The notes below the pieces were generated by a model, which was given only the letters and a program-made list of their open reading frames with translations, searched no databases and had not been told where the DNA came from. Below, one piece after another: positions 44,897-59,816 of a DNA stretch of 64,000 nt. Within the stretch, counting starts at the first letter, position 1, and each line of letters starts with the position of its first letter. The translations under genes were made by a program, and so were the position numbers. The DNA comes from Chloroflexota bacterium (GTDB taxonomy: Bacteria; Chloroflexota; Limnocylindria; Limnocylindrales; CSP1-4), in NCBI GenBank assembly GCA_003152165.1, contig PLZO01000034.1:2264-66263 (forward strand), given 5' to 3'.

Positions 44897-45673
44897 TTGA
44901 CCACGTTCGAGCAGGGCTTCGAAGACACGGAGCGCGCCGCTGATGCAGCCGCGAAAGCCGTGGGGAGCCTTCTTGCCGCGGCCAAGCAGCTCAAGAAGGC
45001 TGCCCACGAAGGGGACACCGGGGCGATCCGCAAGTCCTCGGAACGCCTGGGCCTCGCGATCGACGCGGTCCGCCAGGAAGTGGTGAACGCGCGTGGCACG
45101 TGGCCGTTCGGCGAGGACGCTGAGGACGAGTATTTGAGGAATGAATACGAGTCGGAGCTGATGGCGGCTGCGCGCGCGTCGGGGCTGCGCATGGATCAGC
45201 GCGATGGCCGCCTGCTCGCGTTCCCATCGATCGTGCGCGTTATCCCGGCCGATAGGTCTCTTCGGATCGACCGAAAACGGGTTCTGTCGATCCGGCCGTC
45301 TCGGATCATTGCGGCGCTGAAGGCCAATCAGACGAAGAAGCCGCGGTTCGCGCCGGATAGGTTCCTCGAGTCCCTGTTCCGCGCCTATCGCTTGATTGCT
45401 GGCCCAGACACTCAAGGCTCGACCCAAGCCTTGGCCGACGTCTACGAGGCCTTCACGCTACTGCCCGGTGCGACTGCCGAATATGGGCAGAGTGACTTTG
45501 CAAGGGATCTTTTCATCCTCGATCGAAGTGGTCTAACCAGAACAAAGTCGGGTGCCTCGTTCTCATTGCCCGCGAGCACGGGCACGAAAGGCGCGAAGGG
45601 AACCTTCACGTTCGTCGCCCCTGAAGGCGAATTGATCACCTACTTCGGCGTATGGTTCGGGCCGGCGTTGTGA
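44897..45673 (+). CDS. hypothetical protein, first gene of BrxD-like four-gene operon (gene A)
   Basis: TTG 44897 after caggaggga (ORF track extends to ATG 44813). Helical N-terminus, no known motif. Stop overlaps start of gene B (GTGA). Confidence 0.55.
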   Translation: MTTFEQGFEDTERAADAAAKAVGSLLAAAKQLKKAAHEGDTGAIRKSSERLGLAIDAVRQEVVNARGTWPFGEDAEDEYLRNEYESELMAAARASGLRMDQRDGRLLAFPSIVRVIPADRSLRIDRKRVLSIRPSRIIAALKANQTKKPRFAPDRFLESLFRAYRLIAGPDTQGSTQALADVYEAFTLLPGATAEYGQSDFARDLFILDRSGLTRTKSGASFSLPASTGTKGAKGTFTFVAPEGELITYFGVWFGPAL

Positions 45674-46647
45674 CCCTCTCGATGGGCGCTGATGCCTGGG
45701 TTGAGTTTCTCGAGTCGGAATACATGGCCAGTTTCATCAAGGACGGTGGCTCCGCGATCAAGTTCGCGGTCCCGCTCGACGGGGACGCTGCTGGTGCCCT
45801 ATCCAACGCCATCGACGAGCGCGCAACTCAACTCGGCTACGTCGTCGCTGGCGTCGATTCCGCCTTGACGCGGGTGCACATGGTCGACCAGTTGTTCTTC
45901 TCGGTAGCCGAGCAGGTCCCTTGGCGCGAGACAGTCGAGCGTGTCGTGGCCCGTCTGGCCGAAGCCGAGCGATACGCTCCGGCTACGTCAGGTGACGGAC
46001 CCTTGTTTCGGCGATTAGCCGAGGCGAACGACCTTGATCCGGATTTTCTGCTCATGAACCTGCGTCGCAAGATCGAGTCCCACGTCTTCCGCCATAAGGG
46101 CATGGCAAAGGATTTTCGTGTCGCGATGACCCAACTCGCGGTCGCCGAACTCGCGGGGGCACAGGAGGCCACGACGGTTCATAGCGTTCTGACCGATTGG
46201 CTCTGCGGACGCAATCGAGCGGTCAGCGCGGTCAAGCCGTACCACATCTTCACCCGAATCAATCGTACGAACGCTCGCTACTTTTTCGAATCGCTTCTGG
46301 TGTGGCTGGCGTTTGCAGGGTACTCAGGTCTGATCCTCACGCTCGACATCAGCCGTCTCTCCGTGGTTCGGAACCCGCGAGATGAGCGCGTCTATTACAC
46401 CAAGGCGGGCGTACTCGACGCCTACGAACTCCTCCGCCAATTCATCGATGGCACGGACCGACTCGAACATTGTTTGATCGTCGTTGTGCCCGATCCGGCT
46501 TTTCTTGACGAGGACCTCAACGGGCGCGGGATCGGTGCCTACGAGGCCCTCAAGTTTCGCGTTTACGATGAGGTTCGCGATCGAACGCTCGTCAATCCGA
46601 TGGCGTCTTTGGTTCGCCTAACGCGATCCGAGGGGGAAGCCCAATGA
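45670..46647 (+). CDS. hypothetical protein, gene B. Possible degenerate P-loop/Walker-B-like paralogue of the BrxD-like ATPase
   Basis: About 325 aa. DGGSAIKFAVPLDG (degenerate P-loop-like), LILTLDISRL (Walker-B-like hhhhD). Stop overlaps start of gene C (ATGA). Confidence 0.6.
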   Translation: MTLSMGADAWVEFLESEYMASFIKDGGSAIKFAVPLDGDAAGALSNAIDERATQLGYVVAGVDSALTRVHMVDQLFFSVAEQVPWRETVERVVARLAEAERYAPATSGDGPLFRRLAEANDLDPDFLLMNLRRKIESHVFRHKGMAKDFRVAMTQLAVAELAGAQEATTVHSVLTDWLCGRNRAVSAVKPYHIFTRINRTNARYFFESLLVWLAFAGYSGLILTLDISRLSVVRNPRDERVYYTKAGVLDAYELLRQFIDGTDRLEHCLIVVVPDPAFLDEDLNGRGIGAYEALKFRVYDEVRDRTLVNPMASLVRLTRSEGEAQ

Positions 46648-47963
46648 CCAGCAACCTGGCGAGTATCCCGGATCGACGCGCGATTGAAGCCTTAAGAAAC
46701 GGTGTTCCGAACCGAGATGCGGTTCGAGTTCTCGGCTGCAACCAGCCCGACGTGGAGGCGCGGTTCTCAGCCCAGCTCTCCGGAGTTCCGGCGGCGACCG
46801 ACGCCGATAGTCAGGTCCCCGGAATGCTTGTGGCCGGTGGCTTCGGCAGTGGCAAGTCCCACTTGCTCGAGTACCTCGAGCACCTCGGGCTGTCCGAAAA
46901 CTTTGTCGTCAGTCGAGTGGTCATCAGCAAGGAGACGCCGCTCTTCGACCCCGCCAAAGTATTCCGAGCAGCCGTTGAATCCGCTTCTGTCCCAGGTCAA
47001 ACTGGCATAGCGATCCCAGAGGTTGCCCTTCGACTGCGGCCGGATTCCCATTCATATGCCAGCCTGTACAAGTGGGCGAATCACCCGGATTCCAATATGG
47101 CGGCGATCTTTCCCGCGACCCTGATGCTCCATGAGCGTCTGAATAACGACCCAGAGCTGACCGAACTGATCCAGAATTTCTGGGCGGGTGATCCCCTTCC
47201 AATCGCGAAGCTGCGTGATGGGCTTCGACAGATTGGGGAGGCGGCGGCGTTTTCCCTCAAGGCCGTCAAAGCCAAGGAACTCACGGAGCAGAGGTTTCGG
47301 TTTGTCGCTCGCCTGATGCAGGGAGCCGGTTACCGGGGCTGGATCCTGCTGATTGACGAAGTGGAACTCGTCGGCCGGTACAGCCTTGTACAGCGCGGCA
47401 GGTCCTACGCGGAGCTGGCCCGCTGGATGGGCAAGATCGAAGGCCTACAAATCCCCGGGATCACCACGGTAGCGGCGATCACGGACGACTTTGCGTTGGC
47501 TGTCCTGAAAAGGAAGGGCGATGGCGACTACGTAGGGCCCAGGCTTCGCGACAAAGGTACCGATGAGTACCTCGCGTTGGCGCCGCGAGCCGAGGCCGGG
47601 ATGAGGATCATCGAGCGCGACGCAATAACGCTCCAACCCCCAACCGAAGAGATGCTTCTCGAGACGTACGAGCGACTGAAGGGCATTCATGCGCGCGCGT
47701 ACACGTGGGACCCACCTTCCATCGCAGCTGCTGACCTTGCAATGCGCCGAGCAATGCGTTCTCACGTCCGTCGTTGGATGAACGAATGGGACCTCAAGCG
47801 ACTCTACCCGGGCGCATCCGTTAGCACCGAGGAGCAGGAGTTGCGCCCGACCTACGAGGAGGACGTCGTGCTCGAAGAGCAGTCGCCCGACGACGAGGAG
47901 CGCGAGGTGAAGCCCGACGTAGGCTATGAGGCTCTGATCCGCGCCTTGGAGGAACAGCCCTGA
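46644..47963 (+). CDS. BrxD (DUF2791)-like P-loop ATPase, gene C
   Basis: 439 aa. N-terminal AIEALRNGVPNRDAVRVLGCNQ motif, Walker A VAGGFGSGKSHLL, Walker B GWILLIDEVELVG. Matches BREX BrxD family, but no pglZ/pglX/brxC in the window. Confidence 0.8.
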   Translation: MTSNLASIPDRRAIEALRNGVPNRDAVRVLGCNQPDVEARFSAQLSGVPAATDADSQVPGMLVAGGFGSGKSHLLEYLEHLGLSENFVVSRVVISKETPLFDPAKVFRAAVESASVPGQTGIAIPEVALRLRPDSHSYASLYKWANHPDSNMAAIFPATLMLHERLNNDPELTELIQNFWAGDPLPIAKLRDGLRQIGEAAAFSLKAVKAKELTEQRFRFVARLMQGAGYRGWILLIDEVELVGRYSLVQRGRSYAELARWMGKIEGLQIPGITTVAAITDDFALAVLKRKGDGDYVGPRLRDKGTDEYLALAPRAEAGMRIIERDAITLQPPTEEMLLETYERLKGIHARAYTWDPPSIAAADLAMRRAMRSHVRRWMNEWDLKRLYPGASVSTEEQELRPTYEEDVVLEEQSPDDEEREVKPDVGYEALIRALEEQP

Positions 47964-48016
47964 GCATTCCGTTTCGCGACCTGCGGGAAGAGGCGCCCCG
48001 AGGTCTGATTGGGTAT

Positions 48017-48502
48017 TTGAAGTTCGTCGAAGAAGCCGAGTTCCGAGGAATGCGAGGTGCCTTATTCGTCGTCAACAGCCGGGCTGAGCCCCTCGACTTC
48101 AGTTTTGCCCGGATCGACATCCACGCGTCCTTTCTGTGGCGGGCCGGGGAACTGAAGCGCCAAGCTGTCGCGGCGCTGATGCGCACGCTTTTTACAGCCG
48201 CGATCCACGTCCCGGATCTGCTGATCGCATTGGCAGATGAGGTACCCCCAACGATCTTCGCCGAGGACCTCGCCGTCATGATCGCGGTCTGTCGGGTGGC
48301 TGGCGCAGGTGCGCTGGCCTACGCCTCAACGGAGGCCCTCGAGGAACTGCCCGATGCGCAGCACATCTTCTGGGCGGGCCCACCCCCGGTTAGCGGCTCG
48401 GTCGTTCGCGAGTTGTTGGACGCGCTGGTGGCTCGCGGCGGACTGATCGAGCCATTTGATCGGGCTGAACTGGGTCTTGGGGAGGCCTACGCATCGAGCT
48501 GA
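48017..48502 (+). CDS. hypothetical small protein, gene D
   Basis: 161 aa (alternative ATG 48050). No recognisable motif. 54 nt downstream of gene C. Confidence 0.5.
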   Translation: MKFVEEAEFRGMRGALFVVNSRAEPLDFSFARIDIHASFLWRAGELKRQAVAALMRTLFTAAIHVPDLLIALADEVPPTIFAEDLAVMIAVCRVAGAGALAYASTEALEELPDAQHIFWAGPPPVSGSVVRELLDALVARGGLIEPFDRAELGLGEAYASS

Positions 48503-48822
48503 GCAGCTGGTGGCGCGACCGGAGGCCGCCCGAGCGCGCGAACTGGTGGAGTCGACGGCGGCGAGCGACGCCTGAGCCAGCTTTACATTGGGCGCTCCTG
48601 TCAACCACGCCTTTGCCGGCCTCGACGCAGCGCATCGAATTGGGGGGCACCACTCAGGCTGCCTGGCTGCTAACGAGGGATCGCGTAGCCGAAGTTACGG
48701 GTTCGACCGTCCGGATCGATGTCAGACCTCTAACGACAGGGCAGATTTCCGGCCGAACCTCCGGCGCCCAGCGAGACTCGGAAATGGCAACTGGGGCTCG
48801 TCCGGAGGCAAAGGAGTCTGAG

Positions 48823-50634
48823 ATGTCCCTCACGGATCGCCTCAGACTTGTGCTCGCTCCGCCTCTCGAGAGTTTCCTGCCCGGATCCGGGACTGCGCTC
48901 GAATGGCCCGCCGACCTCCTGCCTTTTCAACTCGAAGGCGTCAGAACCCTGATCGGCTCGGATCGACTGCTCCTCGCTGACGACATGGGCCTCGGGAAGA
49001 CCGTTCAGGCGATTGCGGCGATGAGGGTTCTGTGCCACCAAGGGGTCGTGACACACGCTTTTCTCGTCGTGCCTGCAAGCCTGCTGGACCAATGGCGACG
49101 AGAAATCGACAAATGGGCGCCAGAACTCCGAGCAATCATCGTCCGGGGAAGCCCAACCGAGCGCGCCTGGCAGTGGCGGGCCGAGGCGCACGTGACGCTC
49201 GTTGGTTACGAAACCCTCAGGGCCGATTACACAGAGAATCCTGACTCGCCCCCGCGTCGCCGCCTTTGGGATCTAGTCGTTCTAGACGAAGCGCAGAAGA
49301 TCAAGAATCGCGACGTCGAAGTCAGTCGGGAAACGAAGGGTCTACGAAGGCGGCGGTCCTGGGCGATGACCGGCACCCCGCTTGAGAACAGAATCGACGA
49401 TCTCGCCTCGATCCTCGAGTTTGTCGACCACATCGACGGTGAGCCGGTACCGCATTTCGTTCCAGGCCCCGAATTGCTCGCCCGGCACGCTGAACTTCAG
49501 CTACGGCGCCGCAAGGCGGACGTACTTACTCAACTACCTCCGAAGCAGGTGATCGATATCACTCTGCCCTTGTTGCCGCGACAACAGGAGACCTACGCGA
49601 GAGCTGAGCGAGATGGGATTGTTGAGTTGACCGCGAAGGGTGAAACGATTCAGATCCAGCACGTTCTTGCCCTGATCACTCGGCTCAAGCAAATCTGCAA
49701 TATCGACCCAACGTCGAACGAGTCCGCCAAGCTATCAGACGTCCGCGAGCGGCTGCGGGTGCTCGGCGAGGAAGGTCACCGAGCACTCTTGTTCTCCCAA
49801 TACACCGACGACACCTTCGGCGTAGCCGCAATCGCCCGCGAACTTGACGAGTTCCGCCCCCTGACGTTTACCGGGGGAATGAGTAGTGCCACCAGAGACC
49901 AGACCATCCGAGACTTCAAGGAGGATCCGCTTCGCAAGATCCTGATCCTGTCGCTCAAGGCAGGTGGCGTTGGCTTGAACCTGCAAGAAGCCTCGTATGT
50001 CTTTCACATCGATCGGTGGTGGAACCCGGCCGTTGAGCGACAGGCAGAGGATCGAACTCACCGAATGGGTCAATTGGTCCCCGTCACGGTATTCAAGTAC
50101 ACCTGCGAAGCCACAATTGAAGAGCGAATACAAACGATCCTCGCGACCAAGCAGCAGCTCTTCGATGAGATCATCGACGATGTGAGTCTCGACGTGGCTT
50201 CACGACTGACTTCGGATGAGTTGTTTGGGCTATTCGGACTCACGAGGCCGGGCAAGACGCCTGACCCGGACCCGACCAAGCGATCGTCCGGCGTGGAGTT
50301 CGAGGAGCGATGCGCACGGGTTCTTGAGGCTCGGGGTTGGAAGGTCACACGGACCCCGCGGAGCCGGGACGGGGGTGTCGATCTGATCGCGGACCACGTC
50401 GACGAGGTCGGACTCGCACAAAGGCTCTTCGTGCAGTGCAAGGATCACGCCCGCCCTGTCGGGGTCGAAGTGGTTCGAGAACTGATTGGGGTTCTACCCG
50501 CGGGCCAGCCAATTCATGCAATCCTCGCCGCTCGGAGCGGAGTCACAGCTGATGCTCAGGCGCTTGCCAATCGCCGAGGAGTGAAGGTTTGGGACGAGGA
50601 CGAGCTCGCGAACCTCGAACGTCAAGGCACTTAG
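48823..50634 (+). CDS. SNF2-family helicase fused to C-terminal Mrr-like (Mrr_cat) restriction endonuclease domain
   Basis: ATG 48823 after aaggag. SNF2 motifs LADDMGLGKTVQ, DEAQ (VVLDEAQKIKN), QAEDRTHRMGQ. C-terminal ...GWKVTRTPRSRDGGVDLIADHVDEVGLAQRLFVQCKDHARPVGVEVVREL = Mrr catalytic core. Confidence 0.85.
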   Translation: MSLTDRLRLVLAPPLESFLPGSGTALEWPADLLPFQLEGVRTLIGSDRLLLADDMGLGKTVQAIAAMRVLCHQGVVTHAFLVVPASLLDQWRREIDKWAPELRAIIVRGSPTERAWQWRAEAHVTLVGYETLRADYTENPDSPPRRRLWDLVVLDEAQKIKNRDVEVSRETKGLRRRRSWAMTGTPLENRIDDLASILEFVDHIDGEPVPHFVPGPELLARHAELQLRRRKADVLTQLPPKQVIDITLPLLPRQQETYARAERDGIVELTAKGETIQIQHVLALITRLKQICNIDPTSNESAKLSDVRERLRVLGEEGHRALLFSQYTDDTFGVAAIARELDEFRPLTFTGGMSSATRDQTIRDFKEDPLRKILILSLKAGGVGLNLQEASYVFHIDRWWNPAVERQAEDRTHRMGQLVPVTVFKYTCEATIEERIQTILATKQQLFDEIIDDVSLDVASRLTSDELFGLFGLTRPGKTPDPDPTKRSSGVEFEERCARVLEARGWKVTRTPRSRDGGVDLIADHVDEVGLAQRLFVQCKDHARPVGVEVVRELIGVLPAGQPIHAILAARSGVTADAQALANRRGVKVWDEDELANLERQGT

Positions 50635-50685
50635 TGGATCCAGAGATCTACTCAGTTTCCCGACCTGAGCGAGAGTAGGTGCGTC

Positions 50686-51942
50686 GTGACCAGTGACTTC
50701 TCCTGGCTCGACTACTCGGCGCGGGACCAGAGGCTCATGCTGGAGCTGATCGATCAGATCCGCGAGCCGGGCACCCTCGACGAGCTCGGCCTCGGCACCA
50801 TCCGCGACGGGTTCGCCGACTACCTATTCCCTGGCGTCAGCACACTGCAGACGCGGGCCCGGTATCTACTCTTCATCCCCTGGATTTTCCGGCAGCTGGA
50901 GGATGACCGACAGGTCTCCAGCGCCGTCATCGGCCGCCTATCTCGGGACCGGCAGGCGGACCTCGTGGACGCGCTCGAGAACGGGAACGAGTCCGAGGGC
51001 GTCATCGGGATCTCCGCCCGACGAAGACTTCGGCGACCGCCTGCTGACATCTACTGGGGCGCGCTCGGTCAGTACGGGATCAGGCGCTATCCCGGGTCAC
51101 TTGGCGCGTACTTCGCGTGGATCGATCGGTGGCGCGAGGGACACGTCCGTTTCAGGCAGACTCGCCGCGGCGACGGCGGCGAGCTGGTCGACGTCTCCGA
51201 GCCGAACTGGCACGCCCTGCCAAACCGACCTTCTGACCTGCTCACCGAAGCCACCTTCGCGCTGTCGTCCGAAGAGGCGCGGTTCCTCGGGGAGAGGATC
51301 CTCCTGTCCTGCCCGGGATCGCTGCTAGCGTATTGTCTGCGAAACAGGGACGTAACCCTCCAGGCCATCGAGCGCCCCGCCGACATTCCCGGGCTCGACG
51401 GGGAATTGGCGTCCGTGGCCCGCGAATCTGGCAACTTCGCTCGCGTGCTTCGGGGCGCAATGCTCCTTTACAACCTCATGCTTGCAGAGCAGCGTCACGA
51501 GGACGCCGATCCGAACGCCGCATCCCGCGCCCAGGATGCGGACCGGATCGAACGATTCCGGGCGAGGTTGGGTGAGTGGGCTGCCCTTGAGATCTCACCG
51601 CGACTCGGGGAGCTTCGGACGTGGCTTTCCAGCGGCACTTTCCGCGCCATGGTCCCGATGATTGCCTCCAGATCCGGGCAGGCGGCCGACTTCGCGAACG
51701 ACTGGATCAGCATCGCGTTGGTCGATCCGAGCGTCCTCGCAGACAACCCTGCTGCCCGTGCCGCCGTGAGCCACCGCGAGCGAAGGGTCAAACGCCTGCG
51801 TTCGCGCTTCGCCAACGCCACTGCCCTCGCGAACTGGAGCGGGGGCTCCGGGACAGGCGAAATGACCTACCGCTGGACCAACGCTCGGTTGCTTCTGACG
51901 GACATTGCTGCGGGGATTGCCCAGGAGCGCGTGGGTGGCTGA
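50686..51942 (+). CDS. hypothetical protein (418 aa), no recognised domain
   Basis: GTG 50686. Conserved-looking N-terminus SWLDYSARDQRLMLELIDQIREPGTLDELGLGTIRDGFADYLFPGVSTLQTRARYLLFIPWIF. Stop overlaps start of PLD gene by 8 nt. Confidence 0.6.
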   Translation: MTSDFSWLDYSARDQRLMLELIDQIREPGTLDELGLGTIRDGFADYLFPGVSTLQTRARYLLFIPWIFRQLEDDRQVSSAVIGRLSRDRQADLVDALENGNESEGVIGISARRRLRRPPADIYWGALGQYGIRRYPGSLGAYFAWIDRWREGHVRFRQTRRGDGGELVDVSEPNWHALPNRPSDLLTEATFALSSEEARFLGERILLSCPGSLLAYCLRNRDVTLQAIERPADIPGLDGELASVARESGNFARVLRGAMLLYNLMLAEQRHEDADPNAASRAQDADRIERFRARLGEWAALEISPRLGELRTWLSSGTFRAMVPMIASRSGQAADFANDWISIALVDPSVLADNPAARAAVSHRERRVKRLRSRFANATALANWSGGSGTGEMTYRWTNARLLLTDIAAGIAQERVGG

Positions 51943-53851
51943 GGGCACTCTCACGGGTGCGGAGCGCGATTCCTCTCCCGTGCTCCAGCCTCGCCACCGG
52001 GGGCTCCTATTCGAGGCGTTGCGGCCGCCCGCCGGATATCAGCTCGAACGAGCCGTCGGGACGACGTTCACGCTCGACCTCCTCGCGCTGCTCGTGCCAC
52101 CGGTGGCATTCGCCAACTTCGATACCGAGGGCGTCGACGGCACGCCGCTGGCGAATCCTGTCGCCATCTTTGAGGCCGCCCGTCGCAACGCTCCTTTGAT
52201 CACGGTGTTCTGCCAAGCGGGCGAGATCCGTGTCCCCGCCTTCCGACCCGAGTTCGCCTTCCTTGAGCAGGCGGTAGTCGCGGTCAGGCCGCCTCGACCC
52301 GGCGGCATCTTCCACCCGAAGGTCTGGGTGGTCCGCTACGGACCAACGGCCGAGCTCCGTGCCGCCTCGAGTGCTGGGCTGCGCTACCGGTTCCTTTGCC
52401 TATCGCGGAACCTGACCTTCGATCACTCGTGGGACACGCTTCTTCGGCTTGATGGCGTTGCAGCATCCAAGCCCAGATACGTGAACCGGTCGCTCTCCGC
52501 ATTCGTGCGGGCACTCCCTGGGCTCGCCGTCCAACCGATCGGAGACCGAGGTCGGGCAGTGGGTGAGCTCGCCGGTGACCTCGAGACCGTGGATTGGGAC
52601 CGGCTGCCAGATCCGCTGCGGCTCTCGTCGTTCTGGCCCATGGGGCTCGACGGGCGTGCGCCAGCACCTTTTGGCAGCCATCCCGACGGTCGGATGCTGG
52701 TGGTGTCTCCATTTGCGACCGGAAGAGCACTCGACGCTCTCCTCCGAGGTCGCCCCGATTCCGTGCTCGTCACGCGCGCGTCGACCTTGCGTGCCCTGGG
52801 CCGCGAGGGTGTGGCACCTGCCGAGCGGACGTGCGTGCTCCAGCCGGGTCTCGCGATGGCCGCCGACGATGACGAGGCAGGGGCGGGGCCACAGACGGTC
52901 GAGGCATCCGACCTCCAGGATCTCCACGCCAAGCTGTACGCGATTGACACGCCTGAAGGCGCCCGGGTGTGGACCGGCTCAGCCAATGCGACTGATGCCG
53001 GGTTCGGGGGCAACGTCGAGTTCCTTGTCGAGATGCGCTCGGCGGACTCGCGGCACACGGTCGCGGCCATGCTCGAGCCCGGTCCTCCCGACGAGCCGAG
53101 TTTTGGCAGCATGCTCGAGGACTGGGCGGTCCAGGGTCAGCCTGAGGAGGAGACGGAGGCCGACAAGGCCGATCGGACGCTCGGGGCGATCGCAAGGGTA
53201 CTGGGCGGGCTGGACTGGCAGGCACGGGTACGCCGGACAGGTGACGACAAGTTCACCGTGGCGGTGAGGGCGAGCGGGGCCGGCCTGCCCATCAAGCTGC
53301 CCGGCCTGACGGCCTCCCTCAACATGATGGCGTCCGACGGCCGACCGGGCGAAGCTATCAACCTCCGCGCCCGGACGGTCCGCTCGTCGTTCAACTGCAC
53401 GTTCCAGCACCTAAGCGCGTTCTTCGCGGTCCGCCTCCACTTGGCGACCGGCACAGCGGAGAGGACCCGATCGATCCTGATCGTCACGGAGTTTGTCGGG
53501 GCGCCCGCTGACCGTCTCGCCCGCCTCCAGGCGGCGGGCCTCCGGGGCGACGGCTTCTACCGCCTCATGCTCCTCCTCCTTGGGGCTGCGGACCCAACCG
53601 GTGGAGACGCCGTCGAGCTGAACAATGGGGGCGGGTGGTTCGGATCACCCACCTCCTCACCCGGCGGCCAGGAGACGCTGCTGGAGCCGTTGCTTCAGAT
53701 GCTGGCAAGGGCGCCCGAGCGTCTCGATGAGCTTGAGAAGGTGCTTGCTGGTCTGCGTCGGACGCCCGAGGGCAGGAACATACTGCCGCCCGGCTGGACC
53801 GACCTTTGGGATGCCGTGACCACGGCCAGGCGGGGGAGACGCCGCCCGTGA
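51935..53851 (+). CDS. phospholipase D-family nuclease with two HKD motifs (648 aa)
   Basis: HKD-1 GIFHPKVWVVRY, HKD-2 LHAKLYAIDTPEGARVWTGSANATDAGF. Long non-PLD N- and C-terminal regions. Stop overlaps helicase start (GTGA). Confidence 0.8.
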   Translation: MAEGTLTGAERDSSPVLQPRHRGLLFEALRPPAGYQLERAVGTTFTLDLLALLVPPVAFANFDTEGVDGTPLANPVAIFEAARRNAPLITVFCQAGEIRVPAFRPEFAFLEQAVVAVRPPRPGGIFHPKVWVVRYGPTAELRAASSAGLRYRFLCLSRNLTFDHSWDTLLRLDGVAASKPRYVNRSLSAFVRALPGLAVQPIGDRGRAVGELAGDLETVDWDRLPDPLRLSSFWPMGLDGRAPAPFGSHPDGRMLVVSPFATGRALDALLRGRPDSVLVTRASTLRALGREGVAPAERTCVLQPGLAMAADDDEAGAGPQTVEASDLQDLHAKLYAIDTPEGARVWTGSANATDAGFGGNVEFLVEMRSADSRHTVAAMLEPGPPDEPSFGSMLEDWAVQGQPEEETEADKADRTLGAIARVLGGLDWQARVRRTGDDKFTVAVRASGAGLPIKLPGLTASLNMMASDGRPGEAINLRARTVRSSFNCTFQHLSAFFAVRLHLATGTAERTRSILIVTEFVGAPADRLARLQAAGLRGDGFYRLMLLLLGAADPTGGDAVELNNGGGWFGSPTSSPGGQETLLEPLLQMLARAPERLDELEKVLAGLRRTPEGRNILPPGWTDLWDAVTTARRGRRRP

Positions 53852-56800
53852 CGTACGAACCGATCGCACCCCGGTCCCTCGCGGCGCTCAAGCCCTTCCA
53901 GCGGGAGACGGTGCGCTACGTGTTCGAACGCCTGCACGGCGACGACGAGCCGGTCGACCGGTTCCTCGTCGCCGACGAGGTTGGGCTGGGCAAGACGCTC
54001 GTCGCGCGCGGTGTCATCGCGCGAACGATCGACCGCATTCGCGAAGGCGGCGAGCGCCGGATCGACATTGTCTACATCAGCTCGAACGCCGACATCGCGG
54101 CCCAGAACCTGCAGAAGCTCCATCCCGACGGCCACACCGCCCGTGACTTCGCGATGCGAGTCACGTTGCTGCCCGCGCGAACTGGGTCGCTCGATAGCAG
54201 TGACCTCAACTTCGTCTCCTTCACTCCTGGGACGAGCTTCAGCCTCGGCGACCAGTTTGGGCGCCGGGACGAGCGGCTCGTCTTGTACCGGATGCTGCGC
54301 TCCGCCTGGGGCGGTGACGCCATGGACGCACCAGGCGTGGCTCGGATCCTGCGAGGTGACGCTGGTCTTGACGCGTTCCTGCGAGACGCCGCGTGGTTCC
54401 GCGAGCACCCGGCTGGGCTGGACGCCACGATGGTGTCGGCATTCGCCGCGGAGCTGGCGCGACGGGAGGTCGAGGACCTGATGCCCGGGGGACGGCCGAT
54501 CCGGAGGGAGTTTGCCGAGCTCGCGGCGACCCTCACCTCGGATGACGACGACCAACGGCATCGAGCCGAGCGGGCCCACCTCGTCGGCGGGCTCCGGGCG
54601 ATCCTCGCCAGGACATGCATCACGGCAATGCAGCCAGCGCTGATCATCCTCGACGAGTTCCAGCGCTACCGTTCCGTACTTGTGTTGCCTGAGCAGCCGA
54701 CCGAGGATCAGCGGCTTGCGCATGCGCTCTTCCTCGAGCTGGGCGCGAACTCGAAGACCCTTCTCCTTTCGGCGACCCCATATCGGATGTACACGCTGTC
54801 AGATGAGACCGACTCCGACGACCACTACGGCGACTTCATCAAGACGATGGAGTATCTGCTTGGGGGCGAAGGAGCCCGAGCCCTGGGTGACAACCTCCGG
54901 GCCTATCGAGATGCGCTCCTGGCCATCGACCGCCTAGACCCCGACGAGCTAGCGACGGTGCGGGACGCGGTCGTTGCGAGGCTGCGGCGCGTGATGTGTC
55001 GGACCGAGCGTCTCGCCGTGGAAGACAAGCGCGGGGGAATGCTCGACGCTGGCGAGCCCCGGACGTCCGCAGTCACTCCGGCCGACCTGCGCGCGTTCGT
55101 GGCCCTGGACACTGTCAGCCGCGACCTCAAGGCTGCGGGCGACGCCGTCGAATACTGGAAGTCGACGCCGTATGCCCTGTCCTTCATGGAGTCCTACGAC
55201 GTGCGGGCGCGACTGAACGCCCGCCGCTCGAGCCTCTCCCCGGCAGTCGAGAACGTGCTGCGCCTGGGCGACGGCATCCTCCGCACCCGCAACATCAGGG
55301 GCTACCGCCCGGTCGACGAAGGGAACCCTCGTCTTCGCGCCCTGGCGTCAGAGCTCCTTCGTACCGACACGACACAGCCGATCTGGATCCCGCCGTCCCT
55401 GGCCTACTACGGCCTGGAGGGGCACTTTGCGCCTGCGGCGGCCATTGGGTTCACCAAGCGCCTTGTCTTCTCCGCCTGGACCGCGGTCCCACAAGCCATC
55501 GCGTCCCTGCTGTCGTATCGCGTGGAGCGCGGGATGCTCCACCAGCATTTCGAGACCAACCAGCTCGTCGAGGGCGAGCACAAGCCGAGGACGCTGCTCA
55601 CCTTCAGGAGCCTGGACGAGCGCGCTGCTTCGATGACCTCGTTCCTCCTGCTCTACCCGAGCCTGGCCCTCGCCCGGTTGGGTGACCCGCTCCTGCTCGG
55701 CGCCGCAGGCACGCGATCGGCGTCCGAGGTTCGGGACCTGGCGGCGTCCGCGATCGCCGCCGCGCTCGACGAGATTCTGCCGCCCGAGGACGAGAGCGAC
55801 GATCGGACGAACCCCGCTTGGTACTGGGTCGCCCCGCTGCTCCTCGATCGTGCACTCGTCCCCGACACGGTCAGGGGCTTCTTCGGGCCGAACCATCGCG
55901 AAACGGCCGGCTCCTGGGCGACCCTGAAGCCGGGCGCTGAGGAGCGCGATGACGCCGGTAATCTCGCGCTCCACGTGGCCGCCGCAGCGGACGTGCTCGG
56001 TGGAAACCTCCCGAATGGCCGGCGTCCGCGAGACCTCGCGAGCGTCCTCGCCCGCCTTGCCGTCGGTGGGCCTGCAGTCTGCGCCCTGCGGGCACTCTGG
56101 CGGCCTCTCTCGGAGGCTGATCGCGCGGACCCCAGGACTCTACGTGCCGCCGCCCGGGTCGCTTGGGGGTTCAGGAGCCTCTACCGGCAGCCCGAGGTCG
56201 CCGCGATGATCCGCGGTTCCACGCCCGAGGATGCCTATTGGCGTAGCGTCACGGACTACAACATCGGGGGCTGCCTGCAGGCCGTGCTCGACGAGTACGC
56301 CCACGTTCTGCCCGACGTTATGGGCCACCTCCCAGGCGACAGCACGCTCCTCGACGTGGCCGACGCGATAGCTGCCGCGATGTACCGGGCGCTGACTTTG
56401 CGCACTGCCCGCTACGGCTTCACGGACCTCACGACCAAGACCTGGCATAAGGAGCGACGGCGACCCACGATCGGAGCCCGGTTCGCACTTCGGTTTGGAG
56501 TGGACGCAACCGACGAAGCCAACGAGATCCAGCGCTCGACGAACGTGCGGGAGGCCTTCAATTCGCCGTTCTGGCCGTTCGTCCTCGCCACGACGTCGAT
56601 CGGCCAGGAAGGCCTTGACTTCCACGTCTACTGCCACCGGGTGGTGCATTGGAACCTGCCGGCCAACCCAGTCGATCTGGAGCAGCGGGAAGGAAGGGTT
56701 CATCGCTACAAGGGCCACGCTCTTCGCCGCAACATCGCGGACCGCTACGCCGCGGCCGCATTCGACGGCGGGGCCGACCCGTGGGGTCAGTTGTTCCGTG

Positions 56801-57141
56801 CCGCGGCGGACACGGACGAGGCAAGGGCGAGCAACGGCTTGATCCCGTTCTGGATCTCCACAGGCCCGTTCAAGATCGAGCGTGACATCCCGGTCCTGCC
56901 TTTCAGTCGCGAGATTGAGCGCTATGAGCGCTTGCGAAGGTCACGAGCCGTCTACCGGCAGGTGATCGGGCAGGTCGCGCAGGAGGATCTCGTGGACTAC
57001 CTGCTTCGTCTGGGATCGGCTCGCGAGGTGCGGATGTCCCAGGCGGACCTCGCCGTTCGGCTCGAGGCGCTGCGGATCGACCTAGCGCCGCCGCCTCCGT
57101 CCGCACCCGACGGAGCGGTGGGCGACCCAATCGTCGAGTGA
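53848..57141 (+). CDS. large SNF2-like SF2 helicase (1111 aa)
   Basis: Motif I VADEVGLGKTLVA, motif II LIILDEFQRYRS, helicase-C/motif VI SIGQEGLDFH...QREGRVHRYKG. About 600-aa insertion between motifs II and VI. Confidence 0.8.
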   Translation: MTYEPIAPRSLAALKPFQRETVRYVFERLHGDDEPVDRFLVADEVGLGKTLVARGVIARTIDRIREGGERRIDIVYISSNADIAAQNLQKLHPDGHTARDFAMRVTLLPARTGSLDSSDLNFVSFTPGTSFSLGDQFGRRDERLVLYRMLRSAWGGDAMDAPGVARILRGDAGLDAFLRDAAWFREHPAGLDATMVSAFAAELARREVEDLMPGGRPIRREFAELAATLTSDDDDQRHRAERAHLVGGLRAILARTCITAMQPALIILDEFQRYRSVLVLPEQPTEDQRLAHALFLELGANSKTLLLSATPYRMYTLSDETDSDDHYGDFIKTMEYLLGGEGARALGDNLRAYRDALLAIDRLDPDELATVRDAVVARLRRVMCRTERLAVEDKRGGMLDAGEPRTSAVTPADLRAFVALDTVSRDLKAAGDAVEYWKSTPYALSFMESYDVRARLNARRSSLSPAVENVLRLGDGILRTRNIRGYRPVDEGNPRLRALASELLRTDTTQPIWIPPSLAYYGLEGHFAPAAAIGFTKRLVFSAWTAVPQAIASLLSYRVERGMLHQHFETNQLVEGEHKPRTLLTFRSLDERAASMTSFLLLYPSLALARLGDPLLLGAAGTRSASEVRDLAASAIAAALDEILPPEDESDDRTNPAWYWVAPLLLDRALVPDTVRGFFGPNHRETAGSWATLKPGAEERDDAGNLALHVAAAADVLGGNLPNGRRPRDLASVLARLAVGGPAVCALRALWRPLSEADRADPRTLRAAARVAWGFRSLYRQPEVAAMIRGSTPEDAYWRSVTDYNIGGCLQAVLDEYAHVLPDVMGHLPGDSTLLDVADAIAAAMYRALTLRTARYGFTDLTTKTWHKERRRPTIGARFALRFGVDATDEANEIQRSTNVREAFNSPFWPFVLATTSIGQEGLDFHVYCHRVVHWNLPANPVDLEQREGRVHRYKGHALRRNIADRYAAAAFDGGADPWGQLFRAAADTDEARASNGLIPFWISTGPFKIERDIPVLPFSREIERYERLRRSRAVYRQVIGQVAQEDLVDYLLRLGSAREVRMSQADLAVRLEALRIDLAPPPPSAPDGAVGDPIVE

Positions 57142-57281
57142 CAAGGCCACGACCCGCAGCCAATTGCCGACACAAGAGACGCCTCGTGGGAGTGCGCTTC
57201 GTCGACGGGTGTCCGGCCACTCATTCGGAAAGAGCTCGCATTACTCCGTGCTCGTTCGATGGTTTCTCGCGCCACGCCCAC

Positions 57282-57509
57282 CTACGCTGCCTCGTCGAGC
57301 ACCGGACTCTCCGGGCTCGGCGACCTTGCGGAGCGGACCAGCGGAGGATCGCGGACGTAGAGGCAGAGCGGGGCCGCAGGAGTGGCACCACAAGTCCCTT
57401 GGTTCGACTCGACGGGGCCTCGCTCGAGCGAGATTCCAGCGAGCTCGGTGGCGGTCATCTCGAGACCCGTCTTCTTGAGGAAGGCAATCGCCGGCCTCAT
57501 CAATGACAT
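57282..57509 (-). CDS. small ORF, possible HTH-like protein (uncertain, maybe frameshifted)
   Basis: MSLMRPAIAFLKKTGLEMTATELAGISLERG... in the 594-bp gap between the helicase gene and the GIY-YIG gene. Low-complexity C-terminus. Confidence 0.2.
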   Translation of the reverse strand: MSLMRPAIAFLKKTGLEMTATELAGISLERGPVESNQGTCGATPAAPLCLYVRDPPLVRSARSPSPESPVLDEAA

Positions 57510-57734
57510 TCTCTGCCTCGGAAGCCTGTATTGGCCTGGCGCGGGGAAGAACAGGCGTTATGGTTGCCCTTCACCCGGAAATGGCCTGGTGGCACACGAG
57601 ATGGATGTCGGCGCGCCTGAAGGCCTGCTCCACGGGTACACGCGGAGCAGGTAGCCGTTCGCCTTCGACGTTGTCGTGGTGGACTCGACCAAGTCCTACA
57701 TGTCGTTGTGCTTGCCGCCGGTCTTAGAGGTCTG

Positions 57735-59816
57735 ATGAACAAAGAAGTCGAATTATTTCTACATCCAGCCCAGGTCCTGCGTCGTACCGAGGCTCTCGCG
57801 TCTCCGAGCCCAGTACCGACGGTCGGCGGTGTTTACGGCTGGTGGTTTCGAACCCTTCCAGCCCCGCTGGACACCGCTGCCTGCGCCACTCAGGATGGCC
57901 TGACCCTACTGTACGTGGGGATCAGCCCGACTATCCCGCCGGCGACGGGTCGGCCGGCCAGCCAGCAGACACTGCGAGCCAGGATCCGGACCCACTACAC
58001 CGGCAATGCTGAGGCTTCGACCCTCCGAAAGACATTGGGCTGCCTGCTGGCCGATGAGCTCGGCATCGAGCTCAGGCGTGTTGGCTCCGGCACTCGGATG
58101 ACCTTCCTGGCCGGCGAGGCCAACTTGTCAGCCTGGATGGCCGAGAACGCCCTCGTGAGCTGGGTCACGCACCCGAGTCCCTGGGAGTTCGAGGACGAGT
58201 TGATCGCAACCTTGGATCTCCCGCTCAACCTCCTTGGTAACTCTAGGCACGCCTTCCACCCAGAGCTATCCCAAATTCGGTCGGCCGCCGTCGGCCGAGC
58301 CAAGGCTCTGCCTGTGATCCCCAATCCGGGCGTAGGGGGTCACTTTGTGGAGGAGCCATCAGGGACTAGCAATCGCTTCGGGGCACGGATTGTCGCTGAC
58401 GGGGCAGGAGAAGATTGCGCTGCCCTCGGACGTCTGGTGCTAACGGGTGTGGCAGCTAGAGCAGATCGTGCCTCGATCGACGATTCGCGGCTCATGCTCG
58501 CCGCAGCTCTCCGAGCACTACGCCAGGACGAGCGGCGCATCGACATCCTCGTGACTCCTGCGGGCTTTGTCGAACGGAGCCTGGACGGGGCGTGGTCCGG
58601 CGAACAGGGCTGGGACTCGAGCCAGGCTGACTTCGATCGCCTTGCAACCAGTGCCGCGTCGGTCGCGACCGAGCTGATGACTCCTGACTTGTGCGAGTTG
58701 GCCCTCGAAGTGGTTGACCACATTGTGCTGGGGATCGACGTCTGGCCGACTGACGATCCCGAACTTCATGGTGAGGTCGCTTGCCTCTATGACGTCCAGA
58801 CGGGCGCCGTTCGCCCCGTCACAGGGAAGTCGTACCCAACCACGGGTCAGCAACGCGACCTCATTCGGAATCCCGGCGCGCAATCCCATGTCATTGAGGT
58901 TGGCGACGAGCGCCTGGCAATCTTGGTTTGCTTCGATCTGGCCGCCTGGAGCCCGCGAGCTAATGCCAACGCAAAAGGCATCCGGGCGGGCACCTGGCAG
59001 GCGATGCAGGAGGCCGTCTCTAAGTCCCGGCCCACCCTGGCCGTCCAGCTGCCGCACACGGTGAGTAACTCCCGAACGTGGACTGCCGCTTGGGCTGCGT
59101 TCGAACGAAATGCGGGACCGGAGTTCCGAGCAGGTACGACTGCAATTCGTCACCTCGACCAGCAGTACAAGCCCGTTCCTGGTCCATTCGATCCGACACT
59201 ATTGGAAGGATCGGGTACCGGTGAGCGCGTGGTGGATATTGTCGTCGGCGGCAGGATCGAAATGATGACCCCAGCTGGCTCGTCGAGTCGAGGGCGCCAG
59301 CCAGTCAAGCGGTCGTCGACTGCGTCACGAGCTCGCACGCCGGGCAGGAACCCTGAGCGTGGAGTCGGGCTCGCGCGCACCGCACTCGAAGTCTTCCAAG
59401 CACGAATCGGCGCGTATCCGGATGGGATCCGGATTAAGGAGCTCGCGGACGAGCTGGGTCGGGCGGACAAGCCAATCTTCGGCGCCCGCCCACTCGTGAC
59501 GCTGCAAAGTGCCCTCAATGCTTCGCAGGCGCACGGCGTCTGGCACCGCAAGGCGGGGGCACTCTGGGTTGCCGGCAGCGGAAACTCCAGGATGGAGAGT
59601 GGTCTGTCCGGGCGAGCCCTGGCGGAAGCCCTCTACGGTTTCGTGGTGGTGCACTATCCCGATCATATCTTCCACTACGGGAAGACCCTAGATGAACTCG
59701 AGCGTTCAGGGATAAAGGTCAGAGGGACGGGCAACACGATGCGAGCGGCCCTAGCTGGAGCGCCGAAACGCTTCGAGCACATCCCAGGTCGTAGCGGCAA
59801 CTGGCGCTGGAAGTAA
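57735..59816 (+). CDS. three-domain protein: GIY-YIG-like nuclease domain + carbon-nitrogen hydrolase-like domain + C-terminal HARE-HTH-like domain
   Basis: N-term GVYGWWF...LLYVGIS...LRARIRTHY...STLRKTLGCLL (GIY-YIG/T5orf172-like). Middle IDILVTPAGFV / TGKSYPT / RLAILVCFDLAAW resembles CN-hydrolase E-K-C triad positions with Glu replaced by Ala. C-term GIRIKELADELGRADKPIFGARPLVTLQSAL (HARE-HTH-like). Confidence 0.6.
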   Translation: MNKEVELFLHPAQVLRRTEALASPSPVPTVGGVYGWWFRTLPAPLDTAACATQDGLTLLYVGISPTIPPATGRPASQQTLRARIRTHYTGNAEASTLRKTLGCLLADELGIELRRVGSGTRMTFLAGEANLSAWMAENALVSWVTHPSPWEFEDELIATLDLPLNLLGNSRHAFHPELSQIRSAAVGRAKALPVIPNPGVGGHFVEEPSGTSNRFGARIVADGAGEDCAALGRLVLTGVAARADRASIDDSRLMLAAALRALRQDERRIDILVTPAGFVERSLDGAWSGEQGWDSSQADFDRLATSAASVATELMTPDLCELALEVVDHIVLGIDVWPTDDPELHGEVACLYDVQTGAVRPVTGKSYPTTGQQRDLIRNPGAQSHVIEVGDERLAILVCFDLAAWSPRANANAKGIRAGTWQAMQEAVSKSRPTLAVQLPHTVSNSRTWTAAWAAFERNAGPEFRAGTTAIRHLDQQYKPVPGPFDPTLLEGSGTGERVVDIVVGGRIEMMTPAGSSSRGRQPVKRSSTASRARTPGRNPERGVGLARTALEVFQARIGAYPDGIRIKELADELGRADKPIFGARPLVTLQSALNASQAHGVWHRKAGALWVAGSGNSRMESGLSGRALAEALYGFVVVHYPDHIFHYGKTLDELERSGIKVRGTGNTMRAALAGAPKRFEHIPGRSGNWRWK

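What the first reader, a model, noticed from the sequence alone, without database searches (positions are those of the whole stretch)
48823..57141. SNF2-Mrr fusion, unknown 418-aa protein, 648-aa double-HKD PLD nuclease and 1111-aa SNF2-like helicase: tightly coupled nuclease-helicase array
Four co-directional genes with 52-nt, 8-nt-overlap and 4-nt-overlap junctions. The array combines two different SNF2-like motors (one fused to an Mrr catalytic domain, one with a 600-aa insertion between motifs II and VI), a PLD nuclease far larger than DISARM DrmC, and a protein of no recognisable family. Composition is reminiscent of DISARM (SNF2 + PLD + helicase) or helicase-PLD systems (Mokosh/Azaca-like), but DUF1998 (DrmB) and a methyltransferase are absent and gene sizes/domains do not fit. 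It may be a distinct system or the effector half of the BrxD-like module upstream (320-bp gap with room for a promoter).
Basis: partly seen in the sequence, partly recalled or inferred. Interest (0 to 1): 0.7.

Follow-up and report, generated by a model that had tools for sequence, protein, structure and literature searches.

The report
Azaca operon beside another system's nuclease
The four genes are not one new system. Three form an ordinary copy of the known anti-phage system Azaca, and the SNF2-Mrr gene is the last gene of a separate five-gene module that happens to sit next to it.

Summary
The four co-directional genes are real and intact, but they are two independently mobile cassettes. 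Genes 2-4 (50686-57141) match the PADLOC ZacA, ZacB and ZacC models over their full length (E = 2e-109, 4e-142 and 0). Their sizes equal the family medians, all catalytic motifs are present, and the A-B-C order holds in every Azaca locus sampled that was long enough to show it. None of the 80 loci carries an SNF2-Mrr or BrxD-like neighbour.

The SNF2-Mrr gene is the fifth gene of a conserved module: a 258-aa protein, two BrxD-like proteins, a 161-aa protein, then SNF2-Mrr. All 21 orthologous loci with upstream DNA show this module.

DNA synteny places the seam inside the 51-nt spacer. One relative is colinear with window 44855-50628 only. Another is colinear with 50665-57171 only.

The "320-bp gap" upstream is coding. 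It encodes a conserved N-terminal extension under purifying selection, with CTG at 48499 where orthologues have ATG or GTG.

Verdict: known system plus neighbour; low interest. The five-gene module itself appears unnamed and may deserve its own look.

The parts
48499..50634 (+). SNF2-Mrr fusion: motor plus PD-(D/E)xK nuclease. It is the fifth and last gene of the upstream five-gene module and is not part of Azaca. The most likely start is CTG 48499 (711 aa).
   Evidence: Pfam SNF2-rel_dom 2.9e-45, Helicase_C 8.4e-19 and Mrr_cat 4.4e-25. Matches to PADLOC ZorD and DpdE models are only partial. Orthologues are 60-92% identical and mostly 711-723 aa. All 21 orthologue loci with upstream DNA carry the module genes. 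The sequence shows intact motifs: DDMGLGKT, DEAQKIKN, QAEDRTHRMGQ, and GGVD...VQCK in the Mrr domain.
48499..48822 (+). Conserved N-terminal extension of SNF2-Mrr, with the motif WWRDRxPPxRxxWWxRRRRxxPEPxLxW.
   Evidence: The frame is open from 48469. The stretch is 51% identical over 135 aa to P0002. CTG 48499 aligns with the GTG or ATG start of orthologues and overlaps the TGA stop of the 161-aa gene. dN/dS is 0.34 against L169, which also has CTG, and 0.32-0.43 against orthologues that start with GTG or ATG.
50629..50664 (.). Seam between two independently mobile cassettes. It spans the last 6 nt of the SNF2-Mrr gene (50629-50634) and the first 30 nt of the 51-nt spacer.
   Evidence: L169 is colinear with window 44855-50628 (86.7% nt) and unrelated beyond. 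L164 is colinear with window 50665-57171 (91.1% nt) and unrelated outside. No terminal repeats were found. No terminator-like site was found in the spacer.
50686..51942 (+). zacA: DUF6361 protein, 418 aa, all-alpha.
51935..53851 (+). zacB: PLD-family nuclease, 638 aa, with two HxK motifs in one chain plus a C-terminal region of about 260 aa.
   Evidence: PADLOC ZacB 3.9e-142, full length. Pfam PLDc_2 covers the second motif only. Residues that are at least 95% conserved across 54 family members are all present in the window: H127-P-K129, R158-N159, H331-A-K333, G348-S349, N351.
53848..57141 (+). zacC: SF2 helicase/ATPase, 1097 aa, with a large conserved insertion between the two RecA lobes.
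   Evidence: PADLOC ZacC E = 0, 1053 bits, covering 8-1015 of the 1019-position profile. The family-conserved motifs are present: G46-L-G-K49-T50, D269-E-F-Q272, S308-A-T310, Q946-R-E-G-R950. Many conserved residues also lie inside the insertion.
44897..48502 (+). The other four genes of the module that owns SNF2-Mrr:
- 258-aa protein, 44897-45673, starting at TTG.
- BrxD-like protein without a Walker A motif, 45652-46647.
- BrxD-like ATPase with GSGKS and DEVE motifs, 46644-47963.
- 161-aa protein, 48017-48502.
   Evidence: Pfam BrxC_BrxD 2.9e-12 and 2.1e-18. The 258-aa and 161-aa proteins have no Pfam or PADLOC match. The start of the 258-aa gene was set from homologues and the AGGAGG site. 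Order and strand are conserved in L001, L003, L085, L086, L088, L089, L093-L095, L098, L100, L115 and L167-L169.

Best explanation
The region holds two separate anti-phage modules placed end to end in a defence island.

(1) 50686-57141 is a canonical, intact Azaca operon (zacA-zacB-zacC). By analogy with the studied Bacillus system, the three proteins form one complex. ZacC uses ATP (its Walker A motif is required) to engage DNA. It licenses ZacB, a two-HxK PLD nuclease, to cut double-stranded phage DNA through a phosphohistidine intermediate. ZacA, an all-alpha protein, is an obligatory but non-catalytic subunit. The cassette carries no methyltransferase, so self is probably spared because the target carries a phage-specific feature. 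The studied system prefers glucosyl-hydroxymethylcytosine T4 DNA. This makes Azaca functionally closer to a modification-dependent (type IV-like) restriction complex than to DISARM.

(2) 48499-50634 (SNF2-Mrr) is the effector gene of the upstream five-gene module. That module has two ORC/Cdc6-type BrxD-like proteins, only one of which has an intact P-loop, and two small proteins. SNF2-Mrr is presumably recruited or loaded by the ATPase pair, translocates on DNA, and cuts with its Mrr domain.

The two modules may share a transcript here. The conserved Azaca cassette begins only 21 nt before zacA, and no terminator was found in the spacer. That would be an accident of juxtaposition.

Shown: identity of the genes, intact motifs, independent distribution, and the synteny seam. 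Inferred: every biochemical step, which is transferred from the preprint or from domain knowledge.
For: - HMM matches: full-length PADLOC matches to ZacA (2.2e-109), ZacB (3.9e-142) and ZacC (E = 0), and Pfam DUF6361.
- Family statistics from 45 complete loci: median lengths are 410, 637 and 1091 aa, and the catalytic residues are conserved.
- Azaca loci: the 80 loci found with a ZacA profile span many phyla and archaea. All that are long enough show A-B-C in this order, and none has a full-length SNF2-Mrr, BrxD-like, 258-aa or 161-aa neighbour.
- Closest Azaca relatives: the closest relative (92% ZacA, L164/L165) and a 63% relative (L166) keep the 8-nt and 4-nt overlaps but have entirely different upstream genes.
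- SNF2-Mrr orthologues (at least 46% identity): all 21 loci with upstream DNA carry the module genes in the same order. 18 come, and three more are L167-L169. More distant SNF2-Mrr proteins (42% identity or less) do not carry them.
- Seam: the synteny break lies at 50629-50664.
- Opposite strand: in L092 an Azaca operon lies next to SNF2-Mrr on the opposite strand.
- Mechanism: it is taken from bioRxiv 10.1101/2025.07.10.664194. That preprint reports that all three Zac proteins are needed for cleavage, that the ZacC Walker A motif and the ZacB active site are required, that T4 DNA is preferred, and that defence against T4 exceeds 10^6-fold.
- Attribution: Azaca is credited to Millman et al. 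2022 and reported as enriched in Actinobacteria.
Against: - No experiment exists on this locus.
- The target specificity of this high-GC variant is unknown.
- Preference for modified DNA has been shown only for one Bacillus system, in a preprint.
- The 51-nt spacer has no recognisable terminator or promoter, so co-transcription of all eight genes cannot be excluded.
- Azaca lies within 10 kb of the five-gene module in 3 of about 16 informative loci: the window, L092 and L169. That is more than random placement would give.
Confidence: 0.92

Rival explanations
1. One reading: the four genes form one tightly coupled nuclease-helicase system. It would be either new or a DISARM-like variant, in which two SNF2-like motors cooperate with the Mrr and PLD nucleases.
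For: The genes are co-directional, with a 51-nt spacer and overlapping junctions. No terminator was found between SNF2-Mrr and zacA. The domain palette resembles DISARM.
Against: None of 80 Azaca loci has the SNF2-Mrr gene. No other SNF2-Mrr orthologue locus with downstream DNA has a co-directional, adjacent Azaca. One has it convergent and one has it 5.2 kb away. The synteny seam lies in the spacer. ZacB matched only the ZacB model, not DrmC, and ZacC's matches to DrmA and DrmD models are local, covering about 50 aa. No DrmB (MZB/DUF1998) or methyltransferase lies in 44.8-63.4 kb.
Confidence: 0.03
2. Two distinct modules that nevertheless cooperate. The five-gene SNF2-Mrr module and Azaca would be preferred partners, for example with complementary target ranges or one backing up the other. 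That would explain their repeated co-location.
For: Azaca lies within 10 kb of the module in the window, L092 and L169. These loci involve two Azaca lineages: those of L092 and L169 are 58-69% identical to each other and 41-48% identical to the window's. They show three different arrangements.
Against: The arrangement is not fixed: adjacent and co-directional, convergent, or separated by three genes. None of 80 diverse Azaca loci, and none of 3 close Azaca relatives, has the module. All three positive loci come from closely related SNF2-Mrr lineages (78-92% identity), so shared host clade and island crowding are sufficient explanations. Other neighbours include BREX, type I R-M, Mrr and NERD helicases.
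Confidence: 0.08
3. The SNF2-Mrr gene here is decaying. Its ancestral start codon is lost (GTG or ATG changed to CTG), so the module is inactive or makes only an N-terminally truncated 603-aa protein from ATG 48823.
For: CTG sits at the position of the orthologues' start codon. An internal ATG at 48823 has a strong AAGGAG site in the window. Public gene callers chose that start.
Against: The CTG is shared with L169 across 13% nucleotide divergence. Even so, the extension stays open in both and has dN/dS 0.34, like lineages that start with GTG or ATG. The CTGA overlap with the upstream stop codon favours coupled re-initiation. The rest of the gene is under strong constraint (dN/dS 0.13).
Confidence: 0.2

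Closest known systems
Azaca (ZacABC; Millman et al. 2022; biochemistry in bioRxiv 10.1101/2025.07.10.664194)
   Same: All three proteins match over their full length. The gene order is the same, the junctions overlap tightly, the sizes equal the family medians, and the PLD and helicase motifs are conserved. This locus is a member.
   Different: Nothing structural differs. It is a high-GC lineage. ZacA is 92% identical to a metagenomic relative and about 33-42% identical to the ZacA of the 80 species-representative genomes sampled. It sits directly behind another system's last gene. Its target specificity is untested.
DISARM (DrmA, DrmB, DrmC plus DrmD/DrmMI or DrmE/DrmMII)
   Same: It has a superficially similar palette: an SF2/SNF2 helicase, a PLD nuclease and a large helicase, all within a defence island.
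   Different: There is no DrmB (DUF1998/MZB) and no methyltransferase. ZacB did not match the DrmC model. ZacC matches DrmA and DrmD models only over about 50 residues of the C-lobe. ZacA has no counterpart in DISARM.
Mokosh and single-gene PLD-helicase systems
   Same: A PLD nuclease is paired with a helicase/NTPase.
   Different: Mokosh uses SF1 helicases. Its models did not match ZacB or ZacC. The PLD_Helicase and NF042964 models match only about 40 residues of ZacC, at 34 bits against a cut-off of 1100.
Zorya type I ZorD (SNF2 helicase with Mrr-like nuclease)
   Same: Gene 1 has the same core architecture, SNF2 motor plus C-terminal Mrr. It matches ZorD models at up to 240 bits.
   Different: Only the C-terminal two thirds of the ZorD profiles are matched. 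No ZorA, ZorB or ZorC genes are present. The partners are BrxD-like ATPases instead, and the N-terminal extension is different.
Shango (TerB protein, ATPase, helicase) and the BrxD-BrxHI dyad of type 2 BREX
   Same: A BrxD/ORC-Cdc6-type ATPase is genetically coupled to an SF2 helicase. This suggests a loader-and-motor logic for the module that owns gene 1.
   Different: No TerB domain was detected. There are two BrxD-like paralogues, one lacking Walker A. The helicase is an SNF2 type fused to Mrr. The module has no PglZ, PglX or BrxC. BrxD equivalog scores are 40-55 bits against a cut-off of 350.

Membership tests
Azaca | ZacA, a DUF6361 protein | tested here: met
   PADLOC ZacA 2.2e-109, full length. 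Pfam DUF6361 at 183 bits against a cut-off of 25.
Azaca | ZacB, a PLD-family nuclease with an intact HxK active site | tested here: met
   PADLOC ZacB 3.9e-142, full length. H127/K129, H331/K333 and G348-S-x-N351 are conserved in at least 95% of 54 members and are present here.
Azaca | ZacC, an SF2 helicase with Walker A and B motifs | tested here: met
   PADLOC ZacC at 1053 bits, full length. GLGKT, DEFQ, SAT and QREGR are conserved and present.
Azaca | The three genes are adjacent, in the order A-B-C, on one strand | tested here: met
   Window overlaps of 8 nt and 4 nt. The same order occurs in every one of the 80 loci long enough to show it, and in L164-L166.
Azaca | Confers phage resistance; DNA cleavage depends on ZacABC | not testable with these tools
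   Known only for homologues.
DISARM | DrmB, a DUF1998/MZB protein | tested here: not met
   No MZB or DrmB match among the ORFs scanned between 44.8 and 63.4 kb (every ORF of 280 aa or more plus the 161-aa and 122-aa ORFs). A tblastn search of the whole window with an MZB protein found nothing at E = 1e-8 or better.
DISARM | DrmC PLD nuclease and DrmA helicase | tested here: not met
   ZacB matched only the ZacB model. ZacC matched a DrmA model only over residues 912-958.
DISARM | Adjacent DNA methyltransferase (DrmMI or DrmMII) | tested here: not met
   The nearest methyltransferase is hsdM of a type I R-M system at 32303-33844. None lies in 44.8-63.4 kb.
Mokosh | MkoA plus MkoB, or the MkoC fusion | tested here: not met
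   ZacB and ZacC gave no Mko matches. Only the unrelated 1176-aa helicase at 59835-63365 partly matches MkoA and MkoC.
Zorya type I | ZorA, ZorB and ZorC accompanying ZorD | tested here: not met
   SNF2-Mrr matches ZorD profiles only from about position 440 onward. The four upstream module genes gave no ZorA, ZorB or ZorC match.
Shango | TerB-domain protein SngA | tested here: not met
Shango | SngB ATPase | tested here: inconclusive
   The 439-aa BrxD-like protein matches SngB only over residues 61-98, the P-loop, at E = 8e-8.
BREX type 2 | BrxD within an operon that also has PglZ, PglX, BrxC, PglW and BrxHI | tested here: not met
   NCBIfam BrxD scores are 40.5 and 54.9 bits against a cut-off of 350. 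No PglZ, PglX or BrxC was found among the ORFs scanned between 22 and 64 kb.

The most novel reading that the evidence does not exclude
The SNF2-Mrr gene is the motor-nuclease effector of a five-gene defence system that has not yet been named. That system has two ORC/Cdc6-type BrxD-like proteins, two small proteins with no recognisable family, and a conserved Trp/Arg-rich N-terminal extension on the effector. Its repeated co-location with Azaca would reflect a functional partnership rather than island crowding. The co-location is seen in 3 of about 16 informative loci, with two Azaca lineages and three arrangements.

The weaker half of this reading is that the five-gene module is a real and still unnamed defence system. 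I put that at roughly 0.5 on its own. The partnership is what makes the reading novel for this finding.
Probability: 0.08. Interest if true: 0.6.

Novelty: already known. Interest (0 to 1): 0.17.

Why it matters
As posed, it matters little. The apparent new four-gene nuclease-helicase array resolves into a textbook Azaca operon plus the tail gene of a neighbouring module. It should not be counted as a new system.

The work still yields useful points:
- The locus gives a clean natural example of defence cassettes being swapped as units, with a seam mapped to about 36 nt.
- The Azaca cassette travels without a conserved promoter of its own.
- The annotation of the SNF2-Mrr gene should probably be corrected to a CTG start, a 108-codon extension, and no intergenic gap.
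- The upstream five-gene module built around a BrxD-like pair and SNF2-Mrr is widespread and highly conserved. It has no model in PADLOC 2.0 and no description in the literature searched, so it deserves separate evaluation.

Tried and rejected
- Sequence searches of ZacA (as a profile), ZacB and ZacC against all PDB chains found nothing, so no solved Azaca structure is available for comparison.
- The promoter and terminator scan of 44-58 kb found no promoter-like sites and fewer terminator-like sites than shuffled controls. It is uninformative for a genome of about 65% GC.
- The search for terminal direct or inverted repeats at the Azaca cassette ends found none of 9 nt or more.
- The tRNA scan for an island integration site found none in the window.
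- Literature searches for the five-gene module (DUF2791 with SNF2; BrxD, SNF2 and Mrr; BrxD-like; a 2026 BREX-diversity paper; a 2025 modularity-network preprint) found no description.
- I tested whether the NERD-helicase and UvrD/PDDEXK genes found upstream of the closest Azaca relatives are part of Azaca. They are specific to that lineage and are absent from most of the 80 loci and from the window.
- I considered the 122-aa ORF at 57138-57506, whose start overlaps the zacC stop in a GTGA, as a fourth Azaca gene. I rejected it because it matches no family, is Arg-rich, and lies beyond the end of cassette homology at 57171.
- The organism could not be named.
Full report
**1. Observation**

Reading the junctions gives the following.
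- SNF2-Mrr ends at TAG 50632-50634 and the next gene starts at GTG 50686, leaving a 51-nt spacer.
- The third gene starts at GTG 51935, seven bases after an AGGAG. It overlaps the TGA at 51940-51942 by 8 nt.
- The fourth gene starts at GTG 53848, in a GTGA overlap with the previous stop.
- These starts give proteins of 418, 638 and 1097 aa, which are exactly the lengths in the public gene calls.

**2. Genes 2-4 are Azaca**

PADLOC models match over their full length. ZacA scores 2.2e-109 (1-394 of 396 profile positions). ZacB scores 3.9e-142 (2-585 of 586). ZacC scores E = 0 and 1053 bits (8-1015 of 1019). Pfam places the "unknown" 418-aa protein in DUF6361 at 183 bits.

I kept the best 80, which span many bacterial phyla and methanogenic archaea. 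In every locus with enough sequence the order is zacA-zacB-zacC.

From 45 complete loci the median lengths are 410, 637 and 1091 aa, so the window's 418, 638 and 1097 fit exactly. Residues conserved in at least 95% of members are all present in the window:
- ZacB: H127-x-K129, R158-N159, H331-x-K333, G348-S349, N351. The second motif is canonical, HxK(x)4D...GSxN. The first keeps H, K and N.
- ZacC: Walker A G46-L-G-K49-T50, D269-E-F-Q272, S308-A-T310, Q946-R-E-G-R950.

Many conserved residues lie inside the roughly 570-aa region between the two lobes. The "insertion" is therefore a family trait and not a peculiarity of this locus. Pfam does not call ZacC an SNF2 protein. Its cross-matches to DrmD, DpdE and BrxHII models cover only about 50 residues of the C-lobe.

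**3. Gene 1 belongs to the upstream module**

The SNF2-Mrr protein has thousands of relatives. The closest are 60-92% identical across Chloroflexota, Bacillota and other groups, and are typically 711-723 aa long.

Gene neighbourhoods from exact-protein look-ups show one recurring operon: a protein of about 260 aa, a BrxC_BrxD protein of about 325 aa, a BrxC_BrxD protein of about 430 aa, a protein of 134-180 aa, then SNF2-Mrr. This holds for L001 and L003, for the degraded L002, and for L167, L168 and L169.

A metagenome scan added L084-L101 and L115. With tblastn and locus-derived HMMs, all 18 orthologue loci that have at least 500 nt of upstream DNA carry the module genes. L167-L169 raise the count to 21 of 21. 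More distant SNF2-Mrr proteins (42% identity or less) lack these genes.

Conversely, none of the 80 Azaca loci has a full-length SNF2-Mrr, a BrxD-like gene, or either small gene.

**4. The seam**

blastn against the closest relatives of each half settles the question.
- L169 (SNF2-Mrr 92% aa) is colinear with window 44855-50628 at 86.7% nt and with nothing adjacent. In L169 the module follows BREX genes (PglX, PglZ, BrxL) and is followed directly by a nuclease-helicase of the RNase_H_2 + AAA_11/12 type (the same architecture as the window's 1176-aa TM0106 RecB-like helicase at 59835-63365).
- L164/L165 (ZacA 92% aa) are colinear with window 50665-57171 at 91.1% nt. There Azaca follows a NERD helicase, a UvrD/PDDEXK protein and a small MZB ORF, and it precedes an inverted hsdR.
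- A 63% relative, L166, has Azaca followed by BREX. The 8-nt and 4-nt overlaps are kept in all of these.

The junction between the cassettes therefore lies in 50629-50664. No terminal repeats flank the cassette.

Cassette homology begins only 21 nt before zacA. Azaca therefore seems to travel without a conserved promoter, and in this window it may be read through from the upstream operon. That is an inference, and the motif scan was uninformative.

**5. The "gap" is coding**

The SNF2-Mrr frame is open from 48469. The stretch 48499-48822 encodes a homologue of the N-terminal extension seen in orthologues, 51% identical over 135 aa to P0002. A WW...WW.RRRR..PEP motif is recognisable even in relatives whose SNF2-Mrr core is only 62-70% identical.

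Orthologues start with GTG or ATG in a GTGA/ATGA overlap with the upstream stop codon. The window and L169 have CTGA instead.

dN/dS of the extension is 0.34 between these two CTG-bearing sequences. Against lineages that start with GTG or ATG it is 0.32-0.43. The rest of the gene gives 0.06-0.13. The extension is therefore still under selection. I favour a CTG-initiated, translationally coupled product of 711 aa, and keep initiation at ATG 48823 (which has an AAGGAG site) as an alternative or additional start.

**6. Mechanism**

For Azaca I rely on bioRxiv 10.1101/2025.07.10.664194. It reports the following for the Bacillus system:
- ZacA, ZacB and ZacC are all required for cleavage.
- The ZacC Walker A motif and the ZacB active site are essential.
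- The complex prefers T4 (glucosyl-hmC) DNA.
- Defence against T4 exceeds 10^6-fold.
- Mutations of conserved ZacA residues did not abolish activity.

The window's proteins retain all the relevant motifs, so the same ATP-dependent helicase-PLD complex is the best-supported mechanism. What this variant recognises is unknown.

The ZacA model is confident (pLDDT 85) and all-alpha, but it has no informative structural neighbour. No Azaca protein has a sequence relative in the PDB.

For the five-gene module the mechanism is inferred from domains only. It has one intact BrxD-like ATPase (GSGKS, DEVE), one paralogue without a P-loop, and an SNF2 motor fused to an Mrr nuclease with an intact D...QxK motif. 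The BrxD-BrxHI loader idea in PMC12839542 is the nearest published analogy.

**7. Comparison with known systems**

DISARM, Mokosh, Zorya, Shango and type 2 BREX each fail at least one defining feature that I tested. Details are in the membership table. Azaca meets every feature that could be tested. It is credited to Millman et al. 2022 and is reported as enriched in Actinobacteria.

**8. Residual oddities**

Azaca lies within 10 kb of the module in the window, in L092 (convergent) and in L169 (5.2 kb downstream). Two Azaca lineages are involved. This is more than random placement would give. It is also compatible with related hosts and a crowded, rearranging island. The window island additionally holds type I R-M, GmrSD, GIY-YIG and nuclease-helicase genes.

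The five-gene module has no PADLOC model for its two small proteins, and I found no literature description of it.

**9. Verdict**

The interpretation as one novel array is not upheld. The region is a known system (Azaca) abutting the effector gene of a separate module. Interest for this finding is low. The neighbouring module is the part worth a separate look.

Noticed in passing
window 44897-50634: A conserved five-gene module: a 258-aa protein, a BrxD-like protein without Walker A, a BrxD-like ATPase, a 161-aa protein, and SNF2-Mrr. It occurs across several phyla at 46-92% identity. The two small proteins have no Pfam or PADLOC model, and no paper was found. It may be an unnamed defence system.
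   Followed up: partly
window 48499-48501 (also L169 9932-9934): CTG replaces the ATG or GTG start of SNF2-Mrr orthologues, in a CTGA overlap with the upstream stop codon. The 108-codon extension behind it remains under purifying selection. Public annotation starts 324 nt downstream.
   Followed up: yes
L092 1-7260; L169 17267-21520: Azaca operons of a different lineage lie near the same five-gene module. One is convergent and adjacent. The other is co-directional, 5.2 kb downstream, beyond a helicase, a 197-aa gene and an Mrr gene.
   Followed up: partly
window 59835-63365; L169 12075-15587; L085 1-1866: A 1176-aa protein combining a TM0106-type RecB-like nuclease, an RNase H-like domain and an SF1 helicase (partly MkoA-like). 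Homologues recur next to the five-gene module: immediately downstream in L169 (44% aa) and inverted upstream in L085 (74% aa).
   Followed up: no
window 57708-59816: A 702-aa protein with an N-terminal GIY_YIG_2 domain and a long uncharacterised remainder. It lies 18 nt upstream of the 1176-aa helicase and may form a pair with it. It has no PADLOC match.
   Followed up: no
window 40466-43438 (minus strand): A 990-aa GmrSD-type protein with GmrSD_N, GmrSD_C and DUF5655 domains, plus a C-terminal region matching PADLOC PDC-S11. It has a strong full-length match to PADLOC 'Orf5' (1e-168).
   Followed up: no
window 29981-38340: A type I R-M operon: hsdM 32303-33844, hsdS 33825-34997, hsdR 34994-37879, and a YgjP-like metallopeptidase at 37876-38340. 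It is preceded by a 759-aa protein with weak mad2 and methyltransferase-like matches. This marks the left part of the defence island.
   Followed up: no
L164 1566-7434; L166 3857-9943; L019 4426-4734; L033 1246-1530: The closest relatives of this Azaca lineage have a NERD helicase and a UvrD/PDDEXK protein of about 1230 aa directly upstream. Small MZB (DUF1998)-like ORFs lie upstream of zacA in three loci (immediately upstream in L164 and L019, about 1 kb upstream in L033). The domain is the one found in DISARM DrmB. None of this is present in the window.
   Followed up: partly
window 57142-57707: A 566-bp stretch after zacC has no convincing gene. The 122-aa ORF whose start overlaps the zacC stop is Arg-rich, matches no family, and lies outside the conserved cassette.
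   Followed up: partly
window 22018-23547: The longest ORF here joins about 70 residues of an IS110-family Transposase_20 match to a creatinase/M24 peptidase. This suggests an IS remnant just upstream of a metabolic gene, about 8 kb before the defence island.
   Followed up: no
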